Assembly (NCBI GenBank): GCA_002071685.1
Contig: MWBO01000006.1
Location: 1 to 52,528, forward strand
Origin: a candidate division WS2 bacterium ADurb.Bin280
Lineage (GTDB): Bacteria > Patescibacteriota > UBA1384 > DTJR01
Length of the DNA: 52,528 bases
Direction of reading: 5' to 3'
Part shown: positions 8,795 through 47,240 of the stretch, in pieces
How the letters are laid out: each line of letters opens with the position of its first letter
How positions within the stretch are numbered: the stretch's first letter is position 1
Notes under the pieces: model-generated
Seen by the model: the letters and a program-made list of their open reading frames with translations, nothing else
Told to the model about the DNA's origin: nothing
Databases searched by the model: none
Translations under genes and position numbers: made by a program

Positions 8795-8971
8795 CACATA
8801 AAAACGAGTTATCCAAAATCGCTTCGCGATTTTGGATAATGGGCGGCGGCTGACGCCTCGTTCTCCTCGTCGCAAAGCGACATCGGATAACTCGGTATAT
8901 CCTAAATTACTCAAAAATTATGATATAATTTTCTCGTAACTTCGGATATACCGCCGCCCATTATGTGAAAT
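8795..8971 (+). repeat. structured repeat, copy 1 (E1)
   Basis: 14-bp perfect hairpin at 8809-8822/8826-8839 with a TTC loop. 14-bp long-range stem ATAATGGGCGGCGG (8836-8849) / CCGCCGCCCATTAT (8951-8964). Hairpin GTCGC-aaa-GCGAC. CATCGGATAAC motif. Stem CGGTATATCC/GGATATACCG. Ends in ATTATGTGAAAT. Confidence 0.65.
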
Positions 8972-9107
8972 AAATTTTTTTATCATAGTGGTATTTTCGA
9001 ATTTTGTGCATTAAATCACGACGAAAATTTGATTTTTATTTTTTAAAGAGGGGGGTATAAGTTATTTTCTCCGCTTCGCTACGAAAATGGATTATTATAA
9101 AAAATTT

Positions 9108-9116
9108 TGCTATAAT
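9108..9116 (+). promoter_or_regulatory. extended -10 promoter element (TGcTATAAT) upstream of the R-M pair
   Basis: TGCTATAAT lies about 40 nt upstream of the ATG at 9155. There is no clear -35. Confidence 0.3.
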
Positions 9117-9154
9117 AGAATCATAACAAATCGCTAATTTTACTAAACTTTATT

Positions 9155-9754
9155 ATGAAAAACGAAATAAAAGAAATAGAAAAAGATTTAGAATTTGTAA
9201 AAAATATTTACATAAAACTTCTAACGATTCTACCTAGTTTTGATATTACTGATAGCAAAATTTTACCTTATGGGCTTAAAGCACATACCAGATCGGTAAG
9301 TTGGCTAGTTGAGCAGGTTATTACACAGCAAACCAAGTTTAATGCTAAAAAACTTGGCTTAGATGAAGTTAATTTTGATTTTCCAGATACCTCGCTACAT
9401 GATTGCGAAATTATTTATAAAGGCAAAAGCTATTTTATAAATGTAAAAATTCACAATATCGAAGGCAAAGAAAATAAAAATGATATTTCTGCGGTAGAAA
9501 AACTTTATTTTCAATACAGCGTTAATAAAAATTACACTTTAATATATGCTTGTTTTGGTATTAAATTTGAAAATATAAAAATAAGTTTTGTTAAAGATTA
9601 TTTAGAAGTTTTCTCACCACAATTTTTACCAATATATGTAAACCCAAGAAACGATAAAATACAAGCCACATATAGACACGATAAAGTATACAGAACACGA
9701 GATGAATTTTTAAAAATGTTAAAAGAAAAATCAAAAAGTATAATTTTAAAGTAG
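9155..9754 (+). CDS. putative type II restriction endonuclease (assigned by context)
   Basis: 199-aa ORF ending 2 nt before the methyltransferase start. Possible PD...(N/E)xK-like segment (FPD...INVK). Very AT-rich. No family recognised. Confidence 0.45.
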   Translation: MKNEIKEIEKDLEFVKNIYIKLLTILPSFDITDSKILPYGLKAHTRSVSWLVEQVITQQTKFNAKKLGLDEVNFDFPDTSLHDCEIIYKGKSYFINVKIHNIEGKENKNDISAVEKLYFQYSVNKNYTLIYACFGIKFENIKISFVKDYLEVFSPQFLPIYVNPRNDKIQATYRHDKVYRTRDEFLKMLKEKSKSIILK

Positions 9755-9756
9755 CT

Positions 9757-10590
9757 ATGAATAAAATTTTTAATGAAGATATTTTATTGGGAATTGATAA
9801 AATAGAAGATAATTCTATTGATTTGATATTGACCGATCCTCCTTATTGTTTAGGTAAGGATTATGGTAATGATTCAGATCAAAAATCAGCTGAAGATTAT
9901 CTAAATTGGACTTATCAATGGATTGATGCAGTTTTACCTAAACTAAAAAAGACCGGCAGTTTTTACATTTTTTTAAGTTGGCAATATTCTCCAGAAATTT
10001 TTGTATATTTAAAAAAGAAACTACGAATGGTTAATGAAATAATTTGGGACAGACGCGTGCCAAGCATGGGTGGCTCAACGAGAAAATTTTCTTCCGTTCA
10101 TGATAATATAGGTTTTTTTGTTAAAGATAATGATTACTATTTTGATCTAGACAGTATAAGAATTCCTTATGACGAGGAAACGAAAAAAGCAAGAACTAGA
10201 TCTATATTTGTTGGAAAAAAATGGTTAGAAATGGGCTACAATCCAAAAGATTTATGGAGCACGTCAAGAATACATGCTCAAGATCCTGAAAGAGAAAACC
10301 ACCCAACACAAAAACCATTAGAAATAATAGAAAGAATGGTAAAAGCAAGTTGTCCAAAAAATGGAATTGTTTTTGATCCATTTATGGGAACGGGAACAAC
10401 AGCTATTGCATGCTTGGCAAATGATAGACAGTATGTCGGTTTTGAAATAAACAAAGATTACCACAAGCTAATAACAAATCGAATCAAAAAATATAATAGT
10501 TGCCCTACTTTATTTCAACAGCAAGAACAAAAACAAGGTAATTTGGCTCGGGGCATTCACCCCCAACCCCTCTGCCCTTCGCCAAATTAA
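9757..10590 (+). CDS. DNA amino-methyltransferase, beta class (N6-A or N4-C)
   Basis: DPPY (motif IV) near the N-terminus and FDPFMGTGTT (motif I) near the C-terminus give the beta-class order. The last ~16 codons run into a GC-rich hairpin element. Confidence 0.9.
   Translation: MNKIFNEDILLGIDKIEDNSIDLILTDPPYCLGKDYGNDSDQKSAEDYLNWTYQWIDAVLPKLKKTGSFYIFLSWQYSPEIFVYLKKKLRMVNEIIWDRRVPSMGGSTRKFSSVHDNIGFFVKDNDYYFDLDSIRIPYDEETKKARTRSIFVGKKWLEMGYNPKDLWSTSRIHAQDPERENHPTQKPLEIIERMVKASCPKNGIVFDPFMGTGTTAIACLANDRQYVGFEINKDYHKLITNRIKKYNSCPTLFQQQEQKQGNLARGIHPQPLCPSPN
10539..10589 (+). repeat. GC-rich hairpin covering the methyltransferase stop codon
   Basis: TAATTTGGC (10539-10547) pairs with GCCAAATTA (10581-10589). 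The interior is G4/C4-rich. Confidence 0.5.
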
Positions 10591-10650
10591 AAATCAAATT
10601 TTCTTTAATAAAGACATAGTTAATTTATAAAAACCGAGATAAAAAAATTT

Positions 10651-10786
10651 ACATCACATAACAAGGCATATCTGGTTCAAGAATTTTTCATCAATAATAT
10701 TAATAAGGAGTAAAAAATTCTTTCACCCAAATTTGCCTTCATTTCATTTCGGCAAACTTCAGATATGCCTAAACGTTATATGAAAT
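10651..10786 (+). repeat. structured repeat, copy 2 (attC-like long imperfect palindrome)
   Basis: ACATCACATAAC, then AAGGCATATCTG (10663-10674), about 85 nt, then CAGATATGCCT (10760-10770), aaac, GTTATATGAAAT (10775-10786). It shares the CATC..ATAAC start and the TTATRTGAAAT end with copy 1. Confidence 0.6.
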
Positions 10787-10800
10787 TTTGAGTTCTTAAC

Positions 10801-10813
10801 GGGGTTCGCCTTT
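10801..10813 (+). repeat. left arm of a 13-bp perfect inverted repeat bracketing the ASCH gene
   Basis: GGGGTTCGCCTTT. The right arm AAAGGCGAACCCC is at 11272-11284. Confidence 0.7.
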
Positions 10814-10850
10814 CGATTATTTTATAAAGTTCAAAAAAATTAACTATCTT

Positions 10851-11287
10851 ATGGAACATCTTGCAATAATGAGAAAATCTTGGGGATTGACTCAAAAAAT
10901 TCTGTCTGGTCAAAAGAAAATTGAATCAAGATGGTATAAAGTCAAATATGTTCCTTGGGACAGAATCAAAACTGGCGAGATTGTTTACTTCAAAGATTCT
11001 GGCGAGCCAATTACCATCAAAACAGAAGTAGATAAAGTGATTCAATTTTCTGATTTAACTCCTGAAAAAGTTAAAGAAATTTTATTTCAATATGGTCAAT
11101 CCGATGGACTTGGTATTAATAAAATCCCAGAATTTTTTGAGATGTTCAAAGAAAAAAATATTGCATGTTAATTTTTTTGAAAAATCCACAGAAAATCCAA
11201 CCCTTTGAAATTGATAAATCAGGATTTGGTGCAATGTCTGCATGGATTTCTGTTGATAATATTAATAGGATAAAGGCGAACCCCTAA
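10851..11287 (+). pseudogene. ASCH (PUA-like) domain gene interrupted by a -1 frameshift in an A-run
   Basis: The 10851-11171 frame ends ...FKEKNIAC*. The -1 frame continues ...KKYCMLIFLKNPQKIQPFEIDKSGFGAMSAWISVDNI... to 11287, which reads like the normal family C-terminus. The junction is the A7 run at 11152-11158. Confidence 0.7.
11272..11284 (+). repeat. right arm of the 13-bp inverted repeat bracketing ASCH
   Basis: AAAGGCGAACCCC, the exact reverse complement of 10801-10813. Confidence 0.7.
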
Positions 11288-11620
11288 ACTCAAAACTCTG
11301 CGCTCCTTTCAGTCGCGCCCCGCTGCGCTCTCCTCCCTTCGGTCGTCGGGGCGTATAACACAGCGTATGCGGTTCGGGGCTCGGCTCGCCCCTCACCCAT
11401 ATTTTTGCTCCCGTTGGTCGCAAAAACATCGCATACGCTGGAACGTTATGCAAAATCGCTTCGCGATTTTTCATAATGAGGCGGCGGTTCCCGCCAGTTC
11501 TACTCGTCGCTCCGCGACATCGCATAACTGTCAGCTATATGCCATTCTCATAAATTATGGAATAATTTATTCGAACTGACACATAGTTGCCGCAGGTTAG
11601 TTTTTGTAAATATCGCATAA
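11288..11620. other. GC-rich, highly foldable non-coding block (contains repeat copy 3)
   Basis: Stems CGCCCC/GGGGCG and GCGTATGCG (11363-11371) / CGCATACGC (11430-11438). ATCGCATA motifs recur at about 90-nt spacing (11429, 11519, 11613). The ORFs here are Arg/Pro-rich and overlap on both strands, so they are judged spurious. Confidence 0.5.
11445..11545 (+). repeat. structured repeat, copy 3 (E2), direct repeat of 8808-8905
   Basis: Aligns with copy 1 over about 95 nt: same AAAATCGCTTCGCGATTTT hairpin, ATAATG.GGCGGCGG, GTCGC-nnn-GCGACATCG.ATAAC. The 3' pairing partner seen in copy 1 is missing. Confidence 0.65.
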
Positions 11621-37730: not shown

Positions 37731-38264
37731 CTAGAGATTAGATCTTGATTTAACTATGGAGCTAATTATAAAAACCACCAAAAGAGCCACACCGGATACG
37801 GCAAGAGCTTTTATTATATTGATACGCTCCTTGTCGGCTGAAGAGATATCTTGATCTTCTGTTGTTTGGATAATCTGCTCTGGCGATGCTTCGCTACCTG
37901 GTGTTTCTGTCGGATTTATTATTTCTGTCTGCTCGTCCTGTTCTCTTTCCATATCAACGCGGGGGGCTTGGCTTTGATCGATTTGTACATCGCTCGTCTG
38001 CGGTGCTTGGATTACTACAGTTTTAATAACTTCATCTTCTTGGATTGGTATCTGATCTTCGACGATGACGGCTTCGCTTTGAGCGTAGGCACTCCAATCA
38101 TCACTTGAGGCATAGGCATCTGATTGCGAGAACTCGCACGAAGCGCTTGCACTGGCGGACCCATCCTGCGCATTTGCACTTGCTTGACAAGAGTCTTCTC
38201 CTAGAGAAGTTTTTGGGGCAAAAAATAGAGTAAATGCAAATATCAATACGATCAATATATTCAT
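37731..38264 (-). CDS. acidic secreted protein with a C-terminal TM anchor
   Basis: Signal peptide, a D/E/Q/S-rich body, and a C-terminal hydrophobic helix followed by KSRSNL. Confidence 0.65.
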   Translation of the reverse strand: MNILIVLIFAFTLFFAPKTSLGEDSCQASANAQDGSASASASCEFSQSDAYASSDDWSAYAQSEAVIVEDQIPIQEDEVIKTVVIQAPQTSDVQIDQSQAPRVDMEREQDEQTEIINPTETPGSEASPEQIIQTTEDQDISSADKERINIIKALAVSGVALLVVFIISSIVKSRSNL

Positions 38265-38713: not shown

Positions 38714-38872
38714 TTACTGCTCGTCTCCATCTTCCTCTTCATCTTCATCTTCTTCATCATCATCATCGCCCCAGTCTTCTGCCTCTTCGTCATCGTCTTC
38801 TTCTGTTTCTTCTGTCTCTTCTTCAGTTTCTTCTGTTTCTTCTTCTTCCATTACTTGATCCTCATCTGACAT
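38714..38872 (-). CDS. 52-aa hyper-acidic peptide (not in the ORF track)
   Basis: MSDEDQVMEEEETEETEEETEETEEDDDEEAEDWGDDDDEEDEDEEEDGDEQ. GGAGGTG lies 8 nt upstream of the ATG, and a terminator follows. Confidence 0.6.
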   Translation of the reverse strand: MSDEDQVMEEEETEETEEETEETEEDDDEEAEDWGDDDDEEDEDEEEDGDEQ

Positions 38873-38954
38873 GTCAAACACCTCCTTCTCGTAATTTTAT
38901 TTTTGTTAGTTAAAGTATAACAATCAAAACCAAAAAGCAAAATCATGTCAAGAC

Positions 38955-38986
38955 TAAAATGCACAGGCCCGCCGTTGCGGCGGGCC
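38955..38986 (-). terminator. GC hairpin terminator of the GC-rich small ORF
   Basis: GGCCCGCC-gttgc-GGCGGGCC, then a T-run on the minus strand. Confidence 0.6.
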
Positions 38987-39009
38987 TAAAGTGCTGGGGC
39001 TGTTAGTCT

Positions 39010-39183
39010 TCAGCCCTTTATCATCGCAGCTCCTCGCCCGATGATTTCCAGAACTTCGAGGGGATCAAGCGGTCTACCCTCGACCAGAGAGAAAAACCCC
39101 CAAAGGAAGAGGGCCACCAAGGCCACGATCGCCCAGAGGGGGATTTCCCGGGTCTTTGCCTTAACTTGCTCATCTTTGCTCAT
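39010..39183 (-). CDS. 57-aa small membrane protein in GC-rich micro-island A (not in the ORF track)
   Basis: MSKDEQVKAKTREIPLWAIVALVALFLWGFFSLV... AGGAGG RBS. Candidate promoter TTGAAA-17-CATAAT at 39225-39253. Confidence 0.5.
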   Translation of the reverse strand: MSKDEQVKAKTREIPLWAIVALVALFLWGFFSLVEGRPLDPLEVLEIIGRGAAMIKG

Positions 39184-39249
39184 TGCCGTCCTCCTGTTTG
39201 TGCCTTATTGGTGAGCATGCGCAGATTATGCCTCTTTTTATATATTTTT

Positions 39250-40464
39250 TCAAGAGAGGAGGTCTTTTTTGAAGCCGTAGCTGGGAGAAGGCGAAAAGTT
39301 TAAACCGACAGTCGAGGCAAAGCAGGTCGTTTTTTTGCCATATTTTGAATTTATTTGTTCGCTGATTATCTCAATCTTACGTTTTGTTTCAAATTTAGGA
39401 CATAGCGAGAGTTGCCCATTGTTCTCTTTTAAAGATGAGCACCAGACACCTATTTTTCTAACCGAATTTTTAAGAACCAGATTTCCCAAAGTTTTTTTTG
39501 CAAAAAAATGTAAATTTGTAGCGAGATCTGTTGGAGCTTTGATTCTTTGGGTCTTGGCGAAGCCGCTGAAGTCTTGAAATCTAAGATATATTCCTATCTG
39601 GCCACAAACAAGACCCTTGTTTTTTAGTTCGCAGGCTATGTCTTGGCAAAAAAATAATGCTACTTTGTCGATTAGATTCTTGTCAAAAGTATTGAAGCTT
39701 AAGGTTTTTGACCTCGATATTGATTTGGGTTTTGTCACTAAGTAGTATGGTTTGACAGGTTCTCTATCGATGCCGCGCGCTATATTAAAAAGTTTCAAGC
39801 CATAGGAATTGAAGATCAACGTGAGAGTTGTCTGGTTGACTCTACGCAAGTCCTTGAAAGACTCAACTCCCATGCGATTTAACCGCTCCTTGATTCTATT
39901 GCCGATCCCGCAGGCTTCGTCGAGTTCAAATTGATCTAAAAATTGTATTTCTTCTCCGGTCTCAACGATAGTCAAACCATCTGGTTTTTTGGCTTCACTC
40001 GCCAGTTTGGCGATGAATTTGTTTGTAGCGATGCCGCAAGAGCACTTGATGTACTTTCCCAATCGCTGGGAAATCTCTTGTTTTATTTCGCCAACCAGAA
40101 TTTTTGCCTCTTCGGAGTTTGACACGCAATCGCTTAAATCAAGAAACGCTTCGTCGATTGAAAATATCTCAACCTGAGGGGTTTTGGAAATAAAAATTTC
40201 TATAAATTCCCTCGAGAGCGCTTCATATTTTTGGCAATCTGCTTTAATCAGGGGTAGCCGAGGACAAATTGCTAGGGCGTCTTTTATTTGTGTGCCTGTT
40301 TTGATTCCGAGTTTTTTCGCCTCAATGGATGCGGCTATGATAATTGATCTTTTTGAGGGACCGACAACGGCCATGGGGCGACCTCTAAGGGCGGGCCGAG
40401 CTTGTTGTTCGACCGATGCGAAATAAGAATTCATGTCGATGTGAGCAATAATGCGATCGTTCAT
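39250..40464 (-). CDS. dinB: DNA polymerase IV (Y-family)
   Basis: IAHIDMNSYFASVEQ, SIDEAFLD and other Y-family motifs. Start taken at MNDRII (40464). Confidence 0.92.
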   Translation of the reverse strand: MNDRIIAHIDMNSYFASVEQQARPALRGRPMAVVGPSKRSIIIAASIEAKKLGIKTGTQIKDALAICPRLPLIKADCQKYEALSREFIEIFISKTPQVEIFSIDEAFLDLSDCVSNSEEAKILVGEIKQEISQRLGKYIKCSCGIATNKFIAKLASEAKKPDGLTIVETGEEIQFLDQFELDEACGIGNRIKERLNRMGVESFKDLRRVNQTTLTLIFNSYGLKLFNIARGIDREPVKPYYLVTKPKSISRSKTLSFNTFDKNLIDKVALFFCQDIACELKNKGLVCGQIGIYLRFQDFSGFAKTQRIKAPTDLATNLHFFAKKTLGNLVLKNSVRKIGVWCSSLKENNGQLSLCPKFETKRKIEIISEQINSKYGKKTTCFASTVGLNFSPSPSYGFKKDLLS

Positions 40465-40469
40465 TTGAA

Positions 40470-40718
40470 TTAAAAAAAAGATTCTTCTAGCACCCATGAT
40501 AATCGTGTGCCGTCGTAGGTAATTTTATAGCTATTTGCGTTTGATGAGACGTGAAAGCTCAATAGTAAAACAGATCCGCTCCTCGTCTTATAAGATAAAT
40601 CTATCGATTCAATCTTGATTAGTCGTCCCTCGTATTTAAAGGCAATGGGGGACAGAGTGCCGGCGCTAAATCTCGCCAAAACTTCAATGTTTTGATTGAT
40701 GGTTTTTTGTTCTGACAT
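40470..40718 (-). CDS. 82-aa hypothetical protein co-transcribed with dinB
   Basis: ATG at 40718 (the track's TTG start is rejected). Its stop lies 5 nt before the dinB start. Confidence 0.55.
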   Translation of the reverse strand: MSEQKTINQNIEVLARFSAGTLSPIAFKYEGRLIKIESIDLSYKTRSGSVLLLSFHVSSNANSYKITYDGTRLSWVLEESFF

Positions 40719-40724
40719 ATTTTT

Positions 40725-40754
40725 ACAATATCGAACAAAAACCGAACATGTCAA
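40725..40754 (-). promoter_or_regulatory. promoter of the small-ORF/dinB operon with a GTTC-N7-GTTC repeat in the spacer
   Basis: Minus strand: TTGACA (40754-40749), 18 nt containing GTTCGgtttttGTTCGa (40747-40733), TATTGT (40730-40725), 6 nt, then ATG. This predicts a leaderless mRNA. Confidence 0.45.
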
Positions 40755-40928
40755 TATGTTGAAAAATGACTAGCGTCCCCGCGGTGGTGATCCGTGGGGG
40801 CGCGATGAAGCGGAGAATTAGAACTCGAGCTGGAGGTTTTGTGGAAAGACGGGGTGTCCGTCGAGGATTTCTAGGGGAAGATGGAGTGTAGTGTTGACAA
40901 GCAGTGTGATCATTTAATGTTTTTGCTC

Positions 40929-41411
40929 TCAATCTCTCTCCTGCGACCCTGCTTTTATGTATGCGGGTGCTCCTCCGTATCTGCGTTTTGCGAGTGGTTC
41001 CAGGAAGCGGTCCGAGAGGTTGTCGTCAATCTTCCGGCAGTAGCTAAGGGTGTATTCATCCGTGAACACGTTGCTGGGGTTTTTGAACCACCGAGGTGAG
41101 AGCTCGAGGGCGATGTCTAGGATGAACACTAGGGCGAGATTGGGAAACTCTTTACACTGGGCGATAGTTCCCCATGCTTGGCAGTTGAGGGGGCGGTCGC
41201 TTGCTAGCGTTTTCGGGGTCATTACATCAGGTAGGCGTGCCACTTCATAGGCCGCAATCGTGGCCTTGGTACCGAACTGCTCATGATACTCGATCACCTT
41301 GAGACGAAGCTCGGCTTCTTTATCTTTTTCAAAACGAAACAATCTATTTATTTTTTGCATAGCATTATTACTATGCAATTTGGTTTGATACCACAAGTGT
41401 TTTATCTGCAC
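40929..41411 (-). CDS. 160-aa hypothetical protein in GC-rich micro-island B
   Basis: GTG start with AGGAGG 5 nt upstream. The N-terminus (LKVIEYHEQFGTKATIAAYEVAR) could be a helix-turn-helix. No family recognised. Confidence 0.5.
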   Translation of the reverse strand: MQIKHLWYQTKLHSNNAMQKINRLFRFEKDKEAELRLKVIEYHEQFGTKATIAAYEVARLPDVMTPKTLASDRPLNCQAWGTIAQCKEFPNLALVFILDIALELSPRWFKNPSNVFTDEYTLSYCRKIDDNLSDRFLEPLAKRRYGGAPAYIKAGSQERD

Positions 41412-41524
41412 AATTTCCTCCTGGCACTCTACCGCGGGAGTCTCATATGCTTCGGAACTTATTCAATTATTTATGAAAATTAACGACTGCGGGGTGTGTT
41501 GCAAAAAAACCAGGCTTAGTAAGT

Positions 41525-41553
41525 TTGACAGATAGGCCAATTTATGCTTTAAT
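41525..41553 (+). promoter_or_regulatory. promoter of the Flp-like gene
   Basis: TTGACA-17 nt-TTTAAT. Confidence 0.45.
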
Positions 41554-41599
41554 CATTTGCTTGCAGTTGTTCACATAAAACTGGAGGGGAGGTGAAACT

Positions 41600-41722
41600 G
41601 TGAAGCTTTTAGCGTCGTTTTGGAGTGACCAGGACGGGCTGACCGCTGTCGAGTACGCCCTGATGGCCGTCCTGGTCGTTGTTGTTGCCATCACGTTTTA
41701 CGGCTCGAGAGAGCCGAAGTGA
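41600..41722 (+). CDS. flp: Flp/Fap-family type IVb prepilin (short, 40 aa; not in the ORF track)
   Basis: GTG start after GGAGGGGAGGTG. VKLLASFWSDQDG|LTAVEYALMAVLVVVVAI matches the G/xTA(I/V)EY(A/G)L processing motif. Confidence 0.6.
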   Translation: MKLLASFWSDQDGLTAVEYALMAVLVVVVAITFYGSREPK

Positions 41723-41748
41723 TGGCGGCAGTCGTATTGGTGGCCTGG

Positions 41749-41796
41749 GGGTCGGGGTTCGTGGTTCAAGCCCACGTGCTCTGACCCTTTTTTTTT
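41749..41796 (+). terminator. compound hairpin plus T9
   Basis: GGGTC...GACCC enclosing CGTGG-ttcaagc-CCACG, then nine T. Confidence 0.6.
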
Positions 41797-42652
41797 AAAA
41801 AAGTTTACCCGAGGAGAACTTATCGCTTTTGGTGGGGGTTTGAGAAGTGTTGTCGCTTGAGGTAATTTGATCTGCAATCATCACGCTTTGCTCTTGTCTT
41901 TTTCCTTCAAAATTTTCTGCTACTTTTCTGTATTTGCAATAATCGCAATCTTCGCTTGCCTCTGGAATTGTGTCGCTGTCGAGGCATTGTTTGGCTTTGT
42001 TGATTGTGGGCTCTATCCAATCGCATTTTCCTTTGTGCTCGATCAGCTTAATCTTGAAATCAAGCTTACCATCAAATGCCTCCTTGTCTTTGTCGCCGTT
42101 ACAATAAACAAAGTACCCGCTTTCTAAAACATCAAATCCATTCTTGCGAAAAAGCCACTGATAAATCTCCATCTGGCGCTTATAGCCGTCTTGCCAAGGA
42201 GCGTCAAGAGTGACTTCGCCTTCTTTTGCAGTGGATTTGTAATCGACTACTATTAATTGATTTTTGTCATTGATCCAAATGTCGTCTATTGCGCCACTAA
42301 TGATTAAATTAGCTTTTTCGTAAAAATACTTGATCCCTTCAAAATTTTCGCGCCATGTATTGAGATCTTTGTGAGCGAACGGGATGGCATTTATTTTATA
42401 GGACTCCATCAGAGGGTGGGACTCGCCATTTGCTCTGTGAATATCGAACTCTTTTTTCAAAAGGTGATCTACTGCCGAATTAAGTGAAAAGGGGAAACCG
42501 GGCGGCCTGCCGATTCCAAGCCGCTTGTCCAGATAAAAGCATCGCGGGCATTCCACGAAGAGGTCTATTCCGGATCTCGAGAGCCTAAAAGGCTCTTTGG
42601 ATTTTGGGTCATAGAGATACTTCTTCAACCTTGGAGGGTTGTAAAATGCCAT
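41795..42652 (-). CDS. PD-(D/E)XK nuclease with a Cas4/AddB-like four-Cys arrangement
   Basis: CPRCFY near the N-terminus, GAIDDIW...VVDYKS core, and CDYCKY near the C-terminus. Confidence 0.7.
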   Translation of the reverse strand: MAFYNPPRLKKYLYDPKSKEPFRLSRSGIDLFVECPRCFYLDKRLGIGRPPGFPFSLNSAVDHLLKKEFDIHRANGESHPLMESYKINAIPFAHKDLNTWRENFEGIKYFYEKANLIISGAIDDIWINDKNQLIVVDYKSTAKEGEVTLDAPWQDGYKRQMEIYQWLFRKNGFDVLESGYFVYCNGDKDKEAFDGKLDFKIKLIEHKGKCDWIEPTINKAKQCLDSDTIPEASEDCDYCKYRKVAENFEGKRQEQSVMIADQITSSDNTSQTPTKSDKFSSGKLF

Positions 42653-42678
42653 AAATCGGACGAGTTTTTATCTTTATC

Positions 42679-42948
42679 TTATTCTTCTCTTGGTTGCTTG
42701 GGTCTTGCAATAGACACAACAATCTTTCTGCCTTCGACCTCTTGGTCGTTGTACATTTCGATCGCTGCTTTTGCCTCTTCAGGAGTTGCCATTTCGACAA
42801 ACCCGAAGCCCTTGCTTCTACCGGTTTCTTTTTGCGTGATAACTACAGCTGATTCGACTTTTCCAGCTTTGGAGAAAATCTCTTCGAGTGCGCGGTCATC
42901 AACACTATAGGGAAGATTGCCAATAAACAATCTTTTTTCGTTTTCCAT
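42679..42948 (-). CDS. RRM-type RNA-binding protein
   Basis: RNP2 LFIGNL and RNP1 KGFGFVEM. Confidence 0.9.
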   Translation of the reverse strand: MENEKRLFIGNLPYSVDDRALEEIFSKAGKVESAVVITQKETGRSKGFGFVEMATPEEAKAAIEMYNDQEVEGRKIVVSIARPKQPREE

Positions 42949-43114
42949 TTTTCTTGCTAACCTTACTTACTTTAAGTTATAGTGCTCGACCACTCACTCT
43001 AACGGGTTAAATTATAGCACAAAATGAGAAATTTTGCAATAGTCTGAAGGGAAAATCACTTTTTGTGTTTCTGGGTTTGATTTTTTGACGAAAAAACAAT
43101 ATGATTGATCGTGC

Positions 43115-44032
43115 ATGAAAAGAGTTATTGAAGTAAAAAATCTGGTAAAAAAATACTCCAAAACAACCGCCGTTGACAGTATTTCTTTTGAAGTTTTTCA
43201 GGGTGAAGTTTTTGGATTGTTAGGAGAAAACGGAGCAGGAAAATCGACAACTCTTGAAATAATCGAAGGGTTGAGACGACCGACCTCGGGAGAGGTGAAA
43301 GTCTTGGGGTTTGATGCCCAATCGCAGAAAAAACAGATAAAAAAGAAAATTGGCGTTCAACTGCAATCCTCGGCTTACTATAACTTTCTAACTCTTAAAG
43401 AAATTTTAAATTTGTTCTGTACTTTTTATGAAAGCAAAACCGAGCCCATGGATCTTTTGCGGATGGTCAATCTAGAGGAAAAGGCAAACGCTTATGTAAA
43501 TTCTCTCAGCGGTGGTCAAAAACAAAGGTTTTCCATAGTCGCTAGCTTGGTAAATAATCCGGAAATTGTTTTTCTCGACGAGCCGACGACCGGACTTGAT
43601 CCTCTTGCCAGGCGAAATCTCTGGAATTTAATATCTCAAATTAAAGCCGAAGGCAAGACGGTTGTTCTAACAACGCACTACATGGAGGAGGCCGAGGCGC
43701 TTTGCGACAGGATTGCCATTATGGAAAAGGGAAAGATTCTAGCCATGGATGAAACTCACAAGTTGATAGAAATGTCGGAAAATCCTTTTTCAATCAGCTT
43801 TGTGCTTGGTTCAAAAATAGACAAAGACGCTTTTTCCAAAGTAGTATCTTGCGGGGAAATTGAAAATATTTTCGGAAAAAAGAATCATTTTATTTTAAGG
43901 ATCAAGGACAGAGCTTGCCTGAACAAAGCCCTTCCGCTTGTCATGAAACTTAATCCCGACAGTATTCAGGTCGGCCAAGCAACTCTGGAGGATTTGTTTA
44001 TAGATTTAACAGGAAAAGTAATAGGAGAATAA
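43115..44032 (+). CDS. ABC transporter ATP-binding protein (ABC-2/DrrA-like)
   Basis: GENGAGKST, LSGGQKQR and FLDEPT motifs. Confidence 0.93.
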   Translation: MKRVIEVKNLVKKYSKTTAVDSISFEVFQGEVFGLLGENGAGKSTTLEIIEGLRRPTSGEVKVLGFDAQSQKKQIKKKIGVQLQSSAYYNFLTLKEILNLFCTFYESKTEPMDLLRMVNLEEKANAYVNSLSGGQKQRFSIVASLVNNPEIVFLDEPTTGLDPLARRNLWNLISQIKAEGKTVVLTTHYMEEAEALCDRIAIMEKGKILAMDETHKLIEMSENPFSISFVLGSKIDKDAFSKVVSCGEIENIFGKKNHFILRIKDRACLNKALPLVMKLNPDSIQVGQATLEDLFIDLTGKVIGE

Positions 44033-44033
44033 G

Positions 44034-45173
44034 GTGTTTTTAAAACTCTTTGTAGCCGATATCAAGATGATGTTTCGAAACAAGCAAGCGCTTTTTTGGG
44101 CTTTTATGTTTCCGGTTCTCTTCTCTTTTATTTTTGGATTTTTCTTCGGCAAAGAGGCAAAGAGCGGAACCATTGCGATAGTAAATAATTCTAAGACGCA
44201 AATTAGTGAAAGCTATGTCACAGCTCTGGAGGATGCAAACATATACACGGTCAAGAAAGACATTTCTCTCGAAGAAGCGAGCGAACAGATCGAGAGCGGA
44301 AAGATTGTGGCGGCAGTTGAAATTCCCGAATCATTCGGAGAATTGCCGAATTTGTCTGAACGGATGGTGATGATGCAGGGCGCTCCTTCCGATAGTAACA
44401 ACATCGAAATTCCCAAACAAACGCTAAAAATTTTCCTGGATCCGGCCAATGCTCAGGCTAATGCTCCGTTGATCGGCTTTACGGATAAATTTTTAAGTCA
44501 AGTAAATTTAACTGCGCAGAACGCTAGCGAGATTTTCACATACGAACAAGAAAAGACTAATAATAAAGACTTAACTTACTACGATTTTGTTCTGTCGGGT
44601 ATCTTGGGCCTTTCGGTAATGAACTCTTCAATAACTGGCATTGCAATTGCTATGAGCAAGTATCGCGAAGATAAAATTTTAAAAAGAATCACTACAACTC
44701 CTGTTCCTACTTGGGCTTTTATTTTGGCGGAAGTTTTGTCGCGTTTAATTTTAAATGTATTACAAATATCTGTGGTTCTCTCTATCGGCATTTATTTTTT
44801 TGATGCCAATATTTATGGCAGTATTTTTGCTTTAGTGATGGCGACGATGCTTGGAGCTTTACTTTTTCAACTAATAGGATTTGCGATTGCAGCTCTTTCA
44901 AAAACTACTGACGCCGCTCAAGGTATGGGCACGGCGATTACTATTCCAATGATGTTTTTGGGGGGTGTGTTTTTCCCAATAGACTCTTTGCCCAAATGGC
45001 TTTATGCGGTTGTTCAATATTTTCCGTTATCACCATTGCTTAAAATTTTAAGAAATATTTCTTCAGAAGGCGCTTCGCTTTTTGCTGATAGCAAGAGTCT
45101 TTATATAGTATGTGCTTGGGCAATTGGTGTGCTTATTTTTTCGATATGGCGCTTTAGACTCTCCGACGAGTAA
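44034..45173 (+). CDS. ABC-2 type transporter permease
   Basis: GTG start 1 nt after the ATPase stop. N-terminal TM, large loop, then 5 C-terminal TM segments. Confidence 0.85.
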   Translation: MFLKLFVADIKMMFRNKQALFWAFMFPVLFSFIFGFFFGKEAKSGTIAIVNNSKTQISESYVTALEDANIYTVKKDISLEEASEQIESGKIVAAVEIPESFGELPNLSERMVMMQGAPSDSNNIEIPKQTLKIFLDPANAQANAPLIGFTDKFLSQVNLTAQNASEIFTYEQEKTNNKDLTYYDFVLSGILGLSVMNSSITGIAIAMSKYREDKILKRITTTPVPTWAFILAEVLSRLILNVLQISVVLSIGIYFFDANIYGSIFALVMATMLGALLFQLIGFAIAALSKTTDAAQGMGTAITIPMMFLGGVFFPIDSLPKWLYAVVQYFPLSPLLKILRNISSEGASLFADSKSLYIVCAWAIGVLIFSIWRFRLSDE

Positions 45174-45248
45174 TTGCGCTTGAATAAAAGATTAAAAAGT
45201 AATAAAATCTTCCCAAGACGGCGATCTCAAATCTTGGAGGTGTTTTCC

Positions 45249-45788
45249 TTGACAGATACGCTGGTGATTGGCGTCTGTGAGCCCAAGTCTTCAATTCCGA
45301 CTCTTCTTGAAGAGGTGGGGGAAGGGGCTTACATTCGTCCGGTGGAGTTTAGGGTCGTACGGCCCAACGAAGGTCCGAAGGCCGCCGAGTTGATTGGCTC
45401 GTTGCGCCCAAGGAAGACGGTGGTCGTTGTGGGGGCTACGGCGAGAGCGACGTTTATTGTGCCAAGTGCCGCCGTAATGGGCGAAGATCGTCAGCAGTGG
45501 CTTGACGGTGGCATATACAAGTTTGAGAGCCACCGATCTATCGAGCTTCCTGGGTGTGGCAAAACGGCCGATCTTCTTGCGCGACTAGCCGATGGCCAAT
45601 GGGAGTATTGCCGGTATACCCAGTGCGGCACCATAATTCTCGAGGGGAACGCCGTCATCGGCGCATGTCTAGAGACGCGTACAAGGGTGATTGCCTTGCT
45701 GGTTCCCGAGCAAGAAATCGACGGTTGCTTCGATGAGGGCTTCTCGAAGGTGGCTGTCGATGTCGTCTGCGGGCTGATTCTCCAGTAG
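45249..45788 (+). CDS. 179-aa hypothetical protein in GC-rich micro-island C
   Basis: TTG start 6 nt after GGAGGTG. The track's ATG at 45174 adds an AT-rich basic leader. Composition looks coding. No family recognised. Confidence 0.5.
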   Translation: MTDTLVIGVCEPKSSIPTLLEEVGEGAYIRPVEFRVVRPNEGPKAAELIGSLRPRKTVVVVGATARATFIVPSAAVMGEDRQQWLDGGIYKFESHRSIELPGCGKTADLLARLADGQWEYCRYTQCGTIILEGNAVIGACLETRTRVIALLVPEQEIDGCFDEGFSKVAVDVVCGLILQ

Positions 45789-45801
45789 CTGGCAAAGCGT
45801 A

Positions 45802-47240
45802 TCAAGGGGCCCGCCCAAGGCGGGCCCTTTGCCCTTTTAAGATTACTTTTATCAATTTCGTGACAGTTTGTGTATTTTCAGATCTTTTTAAAGTGAATGG
45901 GTCGGTTTTGGTGTCTGCTTGTCTATACTTCGTACTTGAACCGGATTTATAAGGTGAGTGTATTCTCGCATTTATTTGCGCTTCGCTTGGAAGATTGTAA
46001 TGGGAGATTTCATATTGATCGGTGGTGAGACAAAGCTTCTTGTTTAAATACTCAAAAAGTATTTTCGCCTGCGCTATCGGTTGATTTTTCCCATCAATAA
46101 TTTTTGTTTTGAGATCGATTTCGTCTATTTGAAGTTGAATAAACTTCTTGATTTCTCTTGATGATTTCAGCTTGACGGATTCGCCTCCATAAACATATGG
46201 ATCTTGAAATTTCTTTAGCTTATTTTTGCCATCATAGACGGCGGAAATTTTATAAAGACCGGGTGGAATGGAATTTGATTTTGCATGCCCCTATGAATCG
46301 GTTGTGAGGGCTTTGTTTCCCAGCATGATGACGGCATCTGATACAGCAAGATTATTTTGGTCAATTACTTTGATGTCAACGGAGGCGGTATCTTTGAATT
46401 TTCCCAGCTTTTTCAAAATCGAATCGTACCATTTATTATAAGCATCAAGGGTTTTTTGGTAATTTTTGGATACAGCGTTTTCGATGGTGCTGGCGCCAAT
46501 TTTGAGTCTGATCGCCGCTTTTTCATTTAGTGGGGCGTTTTCATAGTTACTCTTAATAAAGAGACCCTTTTCAATTTCCTCTTTGGTAAATAGAAGCAAA
46601 CCAAAATTTTCTACCACGTCAATTTATTCTAGTCGATCGCGATAAATACCAAAATCCGCAATGTTTTTGAGATTGCTTTCAGAGGAAGAGGCGAATTTTG
46701 CTTTTGTAAGGTATGTATTTAGCCCGACTTCTTGTTCTTGGCTTTGTTTGATGGGAGCAATGTCAGGAAAGTTCGTCTGAAGCATCGCTTGCATAAATTT
46801 AAGCAAAGTAATGCAAGCAGGATGGTCTTTGGGCGGACCTTCATCGCTTATTGCCGACTTGAAATCATCATTTTCAGGATAACACCAGCTGGCAAATACC
46901 GCCCACATTTCCATTCGGTTGGTCTTTTCATTTGTTGTCGCGGGATAGCAAAAGCTAAAATATCTTGAATCGCCGAATCCTTTTTTTCATGGCATTTAGA
47001 CGACTTCATTAGTTCGATGGCTGTATCAAGATTTGTATTGAAATAATTCGTATTAATTTTATCTGTAGAAATATTGGTACAAAAATCAATGATGTGAAAG
47101 GCTTCGTGGGCGACTGTTCTCGTCGGCGCATTTGCGATTGCCATTCTCAATATAATCCCCGTCCTCGGGCCGCTTGTTGTATTTGTTTTCATGCTTTCAG
47201 CGCTTGGTACTCTGGTAATATCAGTGGATAAATTTCTCAA
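45802..47240 (-). pseudogene. decayed gene: HExxH metalloprotease-like N-part and CarboxypepD_reg-like C-part
   Basis: HEAFH motif. Frameshift at the T7 run 46981-46987. In-frame TAA at 46624-46626. In-frame TAG at 46291-46293 inside ...ALTTDS*GHAKSNSIPPGLYKISAVYDG..., followed by 163 open codons with no start codon. Confidence 0.65.
45807..45838 (+). terminator. GC hairpin terminator
   Basis: GGGCCCGCC-caa-GGCGGGCCC, then TTTGCCCTTTT. The stem is nearly the same as at 38966-38986. Confidence 0.65.

What the first reader, a model, noticed from the sequence alone, without database searches (positions are those of the whole stretch)
38940..45840. Three GC-rich micro-islands, each a self-contained expression unit
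By eye, 38950-39240, about 40765-41795 and about 45230-45840 are far more G+C-rich than the flanking native-looking genes (dinB, the ABC transporter and others).
- Each has GGAGG-type RBSs, which most native genes here lack.
- Each has its own promoter-like hexamers.
- Each has GC-hairpin terminators.
- Two of the terminators are nearly the same stem: GGCCCGCC...GGCGGGCC at 38966-38986 and GGGCCCGCC...GGCGGGCCC at 45807-45827.
- Two islands flank the dinB operon.

This suggests repeated acquisition from one high-GC donor. If this is an episymbiotic CPR cell, the host is a tempting but speculative candidate donor.
Basis: partly seen in the sequence, partly recalled or inferred. Interest (0 to 1): 0.65.

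Follow-up and report, generated by a model that had tools for sequence, protein, structure and literature searches.

The report
GC-rich single-gene islets, long resident
The GC-rich patches are real, transcribed single-gene units in an ultra-small (CPR-type) bacterium, but they sit in the same chromosomal slots in a sister species and belong to a genome-wide class of about 13% of genes, so they are old resident accessory genes and not fresh imports from one donor.

Summary
Observation confirmed. The patches are 54-57% GC against about 40% for the flanks. They carry promoter-like sites, GGAGG ribosome-binding sites and hairpins. Contigs from several independent metagenomes reproduce the junctions tested, and metatranscriptome contigs cover the island-3 unit end to end.

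"Island 2" is a composite:
- the decayed tail of a resident 266-aa GC-rich gene;
- an AT-rich insertion-sequence remnant fused to that tail;
- a separate Flp-pilin unit.

Interpretation only partly supported. A sister-species contig carries GC-rich genes in the same three slots. DNA similarity stops at the borders of the island genes. The island proteins are 38-53% identical, against 57-99% for most flanking proteins. Island 3 has one homolog among 1.84 billion protein clusters, and it lies in that syntenic slot. Islands 1 and 3 evolve as coding genes.

GC-rich single genes are common. They make up 12.5% of this genome's ORFs and about 10% in loci from family relatives. They share a dinucleotide signature distinct from the backbone.

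Best reading: old horizontally derived accessory genes in hot-spot slots, fast evolving, partly ameliorated and swapped between strains. Only Flp looks like a lineage-specific gain. No donor can be named.

The parts
38964..38988 (-). Terminator hairpin of the island-1 unit (stem GGCCCGCC / GGCGGGCC). It also insulates the promoter of the acidic-protein gene downstream.
   Evidence: Terminator scan: 11 pairs, 9 of them G-C. The same stem stands at the same place in sister contig L024, 1847-1869. It lies inside the 77%-identical block that ends at 38989.
39010..39183 (-). Island-1 gene: a 57-aa single-pass membrane protein with no known family. GGAGG at 39190-39194.
   Evidence: ORF listed. Homolog in the same slot of L024: 41% identity over 46 aa, E = 3e-10. 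Codon-position identity .54/.60/.42. No match in 161 other genomes of the class or in Pfam, PHROGs, PADLOC or NCBIfam.
39225..39253 (-). Promoter-like site for island 1 (TTGAAA-17-CATAAT). Its -35 hexamer overlaps the dinB stop codon.
   Evidence: 10 of 12 matches.
39250..40754 (-). Backbone context: the dinB operon (94-aa ORF 40470-40754, dinB 39250-40497). Its promoter (40725-40754) contains GTTC-N7-GTTC.
   Evidence: Pfam IMS domains. Promoter. The box recurs upstream of the LexA-like gene. Conserved in L024.
40790..41250 (-). Decayed C-terminal part (residues about 128 to the end) of a resident GC-rich 266-aa gene. It carries in-frame stops in this genome.
   Evidence: Frame translations of the window and L024. 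Alignment with the intact 266-aa P0008: 53% identity over 77 aa.
40929..41411 (-). Chimeric ORF: the transposase N-terminus fused to the tail of the resident gene. The gene caller's start is ATG 41360, giving 143 aa.
   Evidence: P0002, P0003, P0004. An RNA contig covers 40891-41142.
41251..41465 (-). Remnant of an insertion-sequence-like element: left end TGAATAAGTTCCGAA..., leader, and the first 42-52 codons of a helix-turn-helix transposase-like gene. AT-rich (37% GC).
   Evidence: The same end sequence stands at the ends of contigs C4 and C37 and in metagenome contig L065. Helix-turn-helix hits are below Pfam cut-offs. No right end was found.
41526..41795 (+). Flp-pilin unit: TTGACA-17-TTTAAT promoter (41526-41554), GGAGGGGAGG (41583-41592), 40-aa prepilin gene (41600-41722) with a G/LTAVEY processing motif, two tandem hairpins and a T-run (to 41795).
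   Evidence: Pfam Flp_Fap, 36.4 bits against a cut-off of 32.2. Fold z = -5.0. RNA contigs 41581-41830 and 41538-41840. Absent from L024 and L053. The only above-cut-off hit in 41 class genomes.
45180..45240 (+). Island-3 promoter-like site (TTGAAT-17-TAAAAT, 45180-45208), leader and GGAGG (45236-45240). Conserved in the sister species.
   Evidence: Nucleotide similarity to L024 runs through this stretch and stops at 45254.
45249..45788 (+). Island-3 gene: 179-aa soluble protein with a TTG start, an orphan, with a conserved C-terminal motif LLVP-x3-IDGCFDEGFS.
   Evidence: The single homolog P0005 (40% identity) lies in the same slot. Codon-position identity .49/.65/.35. Identical RNA contigs in three metatranscriptomes.
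45791..45833 (+). Island-3 terminator: a long hairpin with inner stem GGGCCCGCC-CAA-GGCGGGCCC (45807-45827).
   Evidence: Sequence. RNA contigs end at 45784-45793.

Best explanation
The patches are four separate small accessory-gene units, built like phage 'morons' (promoter, ribosome-binding site, ORF, terminator). They sit in intergenic slots of a conserved backbone.

Shown for three of them (the 57-aa membrane protein, the 266-aa gene now reduced to a pseudogene, and the 179-aa protein): they occupied these slots before this organism and a sister species diverged.

Inferred:
- They entered the lineage horizontally from GC-richer DNA. The codon-position GC of I3 and its homolog (GC1 .63-.64, GC2 .44-.45, GC3 .63-.65) fits a source of roughly 57-68% GC, partly ameliorated.
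- They then evolved so fast that any donor homology was lost, which makes them orphans.
- Divergent alleles are exchanged between strains and species by homologous recombination in the conserved flanks.

Island 2 additionally records an insertion-sequence hit that destroyed the resident gene, and a later, lineage-specific gain of an orphan Flp pilin gene.

Functions are unknown. My guesses are a small membrane peptide for I1, possibly co-regulated with the adjacent SOS-type dinB operon, and an abundantly expressed cytoplasmic protein for I3.
For: Junctions are real.
- Logan contigs from different studies span 40394-41339, 41387-45560 and 44558-45973 with 0-5 differences.

Same slots in a sister species.
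- Sister contig L024 has most backbone proteins 57-99% identical and GC-rich genes in all three slots.
- Nucleotide similarity stops at 38989|39245, 40912|41792 and 45254.
- Protein identities are 41% for I1, 38-40% for I3 and 53% for the island-2a tail.
- An intact 266-aa version of the island-2a gene exists as P0008.

The genes evolve as coding sequence.
- Identity follows position 2 > position 1 > position 3.

Orphan status.
-.

Histories are decoupled from the backbone.
- A strain with 96-97% backbone identity carries unalignable sequence exactly between 38987 and 39248.
- Between L053 and L024 the slot-B gene has synonymous difference 0.14, against 0.22-0.33 in its flanks.

The class is genome- and family-wide.
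- 221 GC-rich patches and a bimodal ORF GC distribution.
- GC-outlier ORFs make up 12.5% of G000, 9.5% of family loci and 2.7% of more distant loci.
- GC-rich genes also flank dinB in other genera.
- The class has a coherent dinucleotide signature, shared by the island coding sequences.
- It contains clear xenologs: AsnRS and OMP decarboxylase.

Codon-position GC.

Expression.
- I3 is covered end to end by identical contigs in three metatranscriptomes.
- Over 18 kb of backbone the same kind of run gives only four fragments of 151-190 nt.
Against: - No donor homolog exists for any island protein, so foreign origin is inferred from composition only.
- I3 and its homolog differ in 60% of codons for identical residues, so synonymous sites look close to saturated. 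Both still hold GC3 of .63-.65. That needs an ancestor with GC3 near .85 (my own two-state estimate, not a fitted model), or a force that keeps GC high.
- The I3 promoter, leader and TTG start are conserved while the coding sequence is not. This fits in-place divergence better than whole-cassette replacement.
- No direct repeats, integrase or tRNA mark the borders.
- Only one sister-species contig and one intact slot-B copy were available.
- Logan contigs are low depth (2-8x). The left junction of island 1 is supported only by the sister contig and by one RNA contig.
Confidence: 0.55

Rival explanations
1. The genes are vertically inherited and kept GC-rich in place by a gene-specific force, either selection on the mRNA or DNA, or a GC-biased repair or recombination process. 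No foreign origin is needed.
For: - Orthologous pairs whose synonymous sites look close to saturated hold the same GC1/GC2/GC3 in both lineages (.63/.45/.63 against .64/.44/.65).
- This profile is close to the equilibrium expected for a genome of about 57% GC.
- The I3 promoter, RBS and start codon are conserved while the coding sequence diverged.
- GC-rich HD_4 genes persist near dinB in three genera at 25-32% identity.
- The slot-B gene has a lower synonymous difference than its flanks, as expected if synonymous sites are constrained.
- Earlier notes on other islands of this genome reached a similar view.
Against: - No known mechanism acts gene by gene.
- The highly expressed RRM gene next door has GC3 of .40, so expression level alone does not explain it.
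- Biased gene conversion should also raise GC in the recombining flanks, which stay at 39-42% GC.
- The class contains evident xenologs.
- The strain-level swap of island 1 is not explained.
Confidence: 0.22
2. One reading: recent, repeated imports from one high-GC donor, possibly the host of an episymbiotic cell.
For: - Coherent GC-normalised signature of the GC-rich class.
- The Flp gene is unique in the class.
- The AsnRS has no orthologs in relatives.
- Single-gene mosaic structure throughout the genome.
Against: - Three of the four units have diverged homologs in the same slots of a sister species.
- No homologs turn up in 1.84 billion protein representatives, 185,579 species genomes or IMG/VR. 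These collections sample digester and sludge organisms heavily.
- Islands are identical between strains whose backbone differs by 2%.
- No mobility signatures at the borders.
Confidence: 0.08
3. Young genes born de novo from GC-rich non-coding DNA, where long ORFs arise easily because stop codons are rare.
For: - Orphan status and small size.
- Low-confidence structure model (pLDDT 42).
- 11 of 16 sampled GC-rich ORFs of at least 110 aa, and 5 of the 10 largest, have no Pfam domain.
Against: - It does not explain where the GC-rich DNA came from.
- I3 shows purifying selection and a strongly conserved C-terminal motif across species.
- The class includes old enzyme families.
Confidence: 0.08
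4. Artefact (assembly or binning chimera), or structured RNA genes and not protein genes.
For: - The genome is a metagenome bin of 65 contigs.
- The GC-rich units fold better than shuffled controls (z from -2 to -5.5).
Against: - Independent assemblies from several studies reproduce the junctions tested.
- The sister contig has the same layout.
- No Rfam hits.
- Codon-position pattern.
- A control gene (RRM) also folds at z = -2.5.
Confidence: 0.03

Closest known systems
Phage 'morons' and similar autonomous promoter-ORF-terminator units of atypical composition
   Same: Single ORF with its own promoter-like site, strong ribosome-binding site and terminator. It is inserted between unrelated genes and its composition differs from the surroundings.
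   Different: No prophage context. No PHROG hits. The units sit in chromosomal slots kept across species, and the deviation is towards higher GC in an AT-rich genome.
Replacement-type flexible genomic islands or islets (hypervariable loci between conserved flanks, exchanged by homologous recombination)
   Same: Fixed borders, conserved flanks, and highly divergent or unalignable content between close strains. Divergence is decoupled from the backbone.
   Different: Single small orphan genes, not multi-gene surface-polysaccharide clusters. All are GC-rich. In slot C the promoter and start codon stay conserved.
Classical horizontally acquired genomic islands undergoing amelioration (Lawrence and Ochman model)
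   Same: Atypical GC at all three codon positions, a distinct dinucleotide signature, and GC2 high relative to GC3.
   Different: No tRNA, integrase or direct repeats. Single genes. No donor homologs. No visible amelioration difference between two diverged lineages.
Flp/Fap pilins of Tad pili (Pfam PF04964)
   Same: Passes the Pfam gathering score. Has the G/xTAVEY processing motif followed by a hydrophobic helix.
   Different: Only 40 aa. The 88%-complete genome shows one PilC-type platform and one A24 peptidase but no TadB/TadC-type genes. No other Flp above cut-off in 40 relatives.
Integron gene cassettes
   Same: Small promoter-proximal single-gene units that end in a hairpin.
   Different: The hairpins are plain terminators. 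They are unrelated to the roughly 100-nt repeats of that array. The units are not in an array and have no recombinase beside them.

Membership tests
Recently acquired genomic island (horizontal transfer from an outside donor) | Composition deviates from the host genome | tested here: met
   54-57% GC against about 40%. Distinct dinucleotide signature of the coding parts.
Recently acquired genomic island (horizontal transfer from an outside donor) | Absent from the same site in close relatives | tested here: not met
   I1, the island-2a gene and I3 have homologs in the same slots of L024. The feature is met only for the Flp unit.
Recently acquired genomic island (horizontal transfer from an outside donor) | Mobility marks at the borders (direct repeats, tRNA, integrase) | tested here: not met
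   No flanking direct repeats. No tRNA nearby. The only mobile remnant is an insertion-sequence fragment that disrupts island 2a.
Recently acquired genomic island (horizontal transfer from an outside donor) | Closest homologs lie in the donor taxon | tested here: not met
   I3 has one homolog, in the syntenic slot of a relative. None in GTDB species genomes or IMG/VR.
Flp/Fap pilin (PF04964) | Profile match above the curated cut-off | tested here: met
   36.4 bits against 32.2; 34.4 bits in the six-frame search.
Flp/Fap pilin (PF04964) | Glycine-preceded processing site with the xTAxEY motif, then a hydrophobic helix | tested here: met
   Read from the sequence...DQDG/LTAVEYALMAVLVVVVAITF.
Flp/Fap pilin (PF04964) | Cognate Tad machinery (TadB/TadC platform, TadV peptidase) in the genome | tested here: inconclusive
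   Only one two-domain T2SSF (PilC-type) gene and one A24 peptidase were found. The genome is 88% complete.
Integron cassette | A shared attC-type recombination site at the cassette end and an adjacent integrase | tested here: not met
   The stem occurs only three times in the genome. It is unlike the repeats of the array at 8800-11540. No recombinase is adjacent.
Insertion sequence (for 41251-41465) | Multi-copy terminal sequence and a transposase gene | tested here: inconclusive
   The end sequence recurs at two contig ends and in another metagenome. The transposase is truncated here and its helix-turn-helix hits fall below Pfam cut-offs. The IS family was not determined.
Structured non-coding RNA gene | Match to a curated RNA family, or conservation of structure and not of codons | tested here: not met
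   No Rfam match. Codon-position identity pattern is pos2 > pos1 > pos3.

The most novel reading that the evidence does not exclude
In this family of ultra-small bacteria about one gene in eight is held, gene by gene, at a separate compositional equilibrium of about 57% GC inside a 41% GC chromosome. The genes sit in fixed slots, across species-level divergence, and include some of the most transcribed genes. This would imply one of two things. Either an unknown GC-favouring mechanism acts on a defined gene class, or a hidden GC-rich replicon or gene-transfer vehicle keeps reseeding the same loci.
Probability: 0.25. Interest if true: 0.75.

Novelty: new variant of a known kind. Interest (0 to 1): 0.45.

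Why it matters
Atypical composition is routinely read as recent horizontal transfer. For symbiotic ultra-small bacteria it is often read as gene flow from the host.

Here the composition signal is strong, yet synteny shows three of the four units to be older than a species split, and no donor is detectable. Composition alone would therefore mislead.

If the GC-rich class is truly kept away from the genome's equilibrium, it offers a tractable case for asking how base composition is set locally in bacteria.

The highly transcribed orphan I3 and the small membrane peptide next to an SOS-type dinB operon are concrete candidates for lineage-specific biology in organisms where most accessory functions are unknown.

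Tried and rejected
- Non-coding RNA reading: Rfam at gathering thresholds and ARAGORN found nothing in the islands.
- Repeats or attachment sites at the borders: none.
- Shared terminator as a mobile or attC-like site: three copies in the genome, unlike the integron-like repeats.
- The T-arm-like hairpin after Flp (GGTTCAAGCCC) as a tRNA fragment or attachment site: it matches none of the tRNA/tmRNA genes ARAGORN found in the genome.
- Function of I3: Pfam, PHROGs, PADLOC, NCBIfam and PDB profile searches were all empty. The AlphaFold model had pLDDT 42, so no fold search was run.
- The 266-aa slot-B protein as a degenerate HD_4 (small alarmone hydrolase-like) protein: hhalign aligns the expected motifs, but with probability 2%. 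Left open.
- Donor search with the GC-rich OMP decarboxylase in GTDB species genomes: no close relatives.
- More alleles through exact look-ups of the RRM protein: only the same two lineages.
- More strains from low-share runs: too little coverage.
- One read-laying run failed on a low-complexity filter at 38817-38852.
- My first hairpin-scanning script was faulty and was replaced by a regular-expression count.
- A literature search found no paper describing this pattern.


Full report
**Observation**

The window (G000 contig C6) has 41.1% GC. Four stretches stand out:
- 38950-39240: 54.3%
- 40765-41270: 53.8%
- 41560-41795: 55.5%
- 45230-45840: 56.8%

The dinB operon between them is 40.3% GC and the stretch 41795-45173 is 40.0%.

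Rfam and ARAGORN find no RNA gene in the region.

Each stretch holds a small ORF with GGAGG upstream:
- I1: a 57-aa membrane peptide, 39010-39183 (-)
- I2a: a 143/160-aa ORF, 40929-41411 (-)
- Flp: a 40-aa pilin, 41600-41722 (+), Pfam PF04964 above cut-off
- I3: a 179-aa protein, 45249-45788 (+), TTG start

GGAGG is indeed rare in this genome, at 7-11% of low-GC ORFs. The shared stem GGCCCGCC/GGCGGGCC occurs only three times in the genome. Native genes also end in GC hairpins.

**Not an artefact, and expressed**

Logan contigs from runs of different studies reproduce the junctions:
- 40394-41339: 0 differences
- 41387-45560: 4 differences
- 40376-41698: 5 differences
- 44558-45973: 0 differences
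- 39008-39252: 1 difference

In three activated-sludge metatranscriptomes, identical contigs cover the I3 unit (45182-45793, 45226-45727, 45228-45784). One run also covers the Flp unit (41581-41830) and part of I2a. Over 18 kb of backbone, runs from the same metatranscriptome series yield only four fragments of 151-190 nt. I3 is therefore probably among this organism's most abundant transcripts. Two caveats apply: contig depth is a poor measure of expression, and GC bias is possible.

**Comparison with a sister species**

The only homolog of I3 in 1.84 billion protein representatives is P0005, at 40% identity. It lies on JGI contig L024, which is syntenic with the window. Backbone protein identities are:
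- RRM protein: 99%
- ABC ATPase: 87%
- PD-(D/E)XK nuclease: 84%
- permease: 80%
- dinB: 73%
- the 94-aa ORF upstream of dinB: 57%

One low-GC neighbour, the 177-aa secreted-looking protein at 37731-38264, is only 37% identical. It evolves as fast as the island genes, so fast evolution here is not confined to GC-rich genes.

L024 has GC-rich genes in the same three slots:
- a 65-aa membrane peptide homologous to I1 (41% identity, E = 3e-10), followed by the same terminator stem;
- a gene of about 265 codons, upstream of the dinB operon;
- P0005, after the permease gene.

Nucleotide similarity between the two contigs stops at the island borders, at 38989|39245, 40912|41792 and 45254. For I3 the promoter, leader, GGAGG and TTG start are conserved, and only the coding sequence has diverged. 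Codon-position identities are .49/.65/.35 for I3 and .54/.60/.42 for I1. This is the pattern of protein-coding evolution under purifying selection.

**Island 2 dissected**

The L024 slot-B gene carries one in-frame TGA. An intact 266-aa version (P0008, 91% identical, with W at that codon) exists in another sample, placed between the PD-(D/E)XK gene and the dinB operon.

The window's I2a ORF aligns to residues of about 128-220 of this protein. Homology continues past its stop codon, through further stops, to about 40790.

Its first 42-52 codons instead match the N-terminus of a helix-turn-helix transposase-like protein. The element's end, TGAATAAGTTCCGAA at 41451-41465, recurs at the ends of contigs C4 and C37 and in an unrelated metagenome.

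I2a is therefore a pseudogene: an insertion-sequence remnant fused to the tail of a resident GC-rich gene.

The Flp unit lies beyond the element's end. It is absent from L024 and L053. It is present at 92% identity in a strain whose backbone is 96-97% identical. It is the only Flp match above cut-off in 41 genomes of the class. The genome shows one PilC-type platform and one A24 peptidase but no TadB/TadC genes, so Flp is an orphan pilin of uncertain use.

**Histories decoupled from the backbone**

- In the 96-97% strain, contigs match up to 38987 and again from 39248, but carry unalignable sequence in between. Island 1 is replaced at the same borders as in L024.
- Between L053 and L024 the slot-B gene has a lower synonymous difference (0.14) than its flanks (0.22-0.33), although its protein is no better conserved.
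- In two bioreactor strains the islands are identical to the window, while parts of dinB and the ABC ATPase differ by about 2%.
- These patterns fit recombination through conserved flanks.

**Genome-wide and family-wide class**

- The 787-kb genome has 221 patches of at least 52% GC.
- ORF GC is bimodal, with a main mode near 41% and a minor one at 55-58%. By my ORF calling, 12.5-15% of ORFs are GC-rich.
- GC-rich genes alternate singly with AT-rich genes, as on contigs C17, C2 and C55.
- Only one paralog pair exists among them.
- Their GC-normalised dinucleotide signature is coherent and far from the backbone. The distance is 20 within the class and 115 to the backbone. The coding parts of I1, Flp, I3 and the slot-B remnant fall inside it; only 0.5-1% of backbone samples are as extreme.
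- Of 26 sampled members, ten have Pfam domains. These are AsnRS, OMP decarboxylase, radical SAM, collagen repeats, peptidase C15, CxxCxxCC, and weak hits to amidohydrolase, DHDPS and a response-regulator receiver. Sixteen have none.
- The AsnRS has no ortholog in 40 relatives; the best hits there are paralogs at 25-30% identity. Part of the class is therefore plainly foreign.
- In loci from family relatives about 10% of ORFs are GC outliers, against 2.7% in more distant loci.
- GC-rich genes flank dinB in other genera too, among them HD_4 (SpoT-type hydrolase) genes at 25-32% mutual identity.

**Origin**

Codon-position GC of the island genes is very similar in both lineages:
- I3: .63/.45/.63
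- P0005: .64/.44/.65
- slot B: .60/.45/.59

The following rests on my recollection of the Muto-Osawa and Lawrence-Ochman regressions, not on a tool result.
- GC1 and GC3 fit a genome of about 57% GC.
- GC2 fits one of about 65-68%.
- That is what a gene from a GC-rich source looks like after partial amelioration.
- A two-state estimate from the backbone's synonymous divergence suggests the GC3 excess should have about halved since the split.
- This implies an ancestor with GC3 near .85. That is possible, but it is not demonstrated.
- The alternative is that GC is actively held. I cannot separate the two with the data at hand.

**Verdict**

The description is right. Island 2 needs to be split into three parts.

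The inference of recent, repeated import from one high-GC donor or host is not supported for three of the four units. It cannot be tested for Flp. A foreign but old origin, followed by fast evolution and allele exchange at hot-spot slots, is the best-supported account (about 55%). An in-place GC-maintaining process is the main rival (about 22%).

Noticed in passing
window 40725-40754 (box at 40733-40747, minus strand): The dinB-operon promoter carries GTTCGGTTTTTGTTC (GTTC-N7-GTTC) between its -35 and -10 hexamers. It is identical in sister contig L024. Nearly the same box (GTTCGGTTTTTGTTT) sits between the -35 and -10 of the promoter of a LexA-like Peptidase_S24 gene (G000 C8, about 25540). 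A third copy (GTTCGGCTTTTGTTC) lies upstream of mraZ (G000 C12:8215). From memory, this looks like an SOS box of the direct-repeat type known from Alphaproteobacteria.
   Followed up: partly
L066 (G000 C17:70-1368): A GC-rich (53%) asparaginyl-tRNA synthetase whose best PDB matches are asparagine-tRNA ligases. None of 40 relatives has an ortholog; their best hits are paralogous class II synthetases at 25-30% identity. A likely xenolog within the same GC-rich gene class.
   Followed up: partly
window 41385-41465; ends of G000 contigs C4 and C37; L065 520-620: An insertion-sequence-like element with left end TGAATAAGTTCCGAA, a leader of about 100 nt and a helix-turn-helix transposase-like gene (MQ[KR]INRLFRFEKDKEAE...). 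It breaks the assembly at two contig ends and recurs in other metagenomes. A 1.4-kb contig in run X4 extends beyond the N-terminal part, so longer copies probably exist.
   Followed up: partly
window 41760-41776: The inner hairpin of the Flp terminator, CGTGG-TTCAAGC-CCACG, has the shape and loop of a tRNA T-arm. It matches no tRNA of this genome, and ARAGORN calls nothing there.
   Followed up: yes
L024 4062-4064 (minus strand codon): The slot-B gene of the sister contig has a single in-frame TGA where the intact homolog P0008 has tryptophan (TGG). This could be a nonsense mutation or a sequencing error. There is no sign of TGA recoding elsewhere.
   Followed up: partly
window 38714-38881 (-): A 55-aa protein that is almost entirely Asp/Glu, with a GGAGG ribosome-binding site. 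It is conserved in L024. The stretch tripped the read-laying filter.
   Followed up: no
window 39803-40456 and 42587-43657: Strains in two bioreactor samples differ from the window by about 2% in these backbone stretches but are identical over the islands and other backbone parts. This is a recombination mosaic among co-existing strains.
   Followed up: no
window 39302-39429: One metatranscriptome contig of the 96-97% strain skips 126 nt inside the 3' part of dinB. This could be a deletion variant or a mis-join.
   Followed up: no
G000 C12:8270-8640 (outside the window): A GC-rich stretch of about 330 nt with no convincing ORF lies behind a near-consensus promoter (TTGACT-17-TATAGT). It is probably a structured RNA gene, so not all GC-rich patches of this genome are protein genes.
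   Followed up: no
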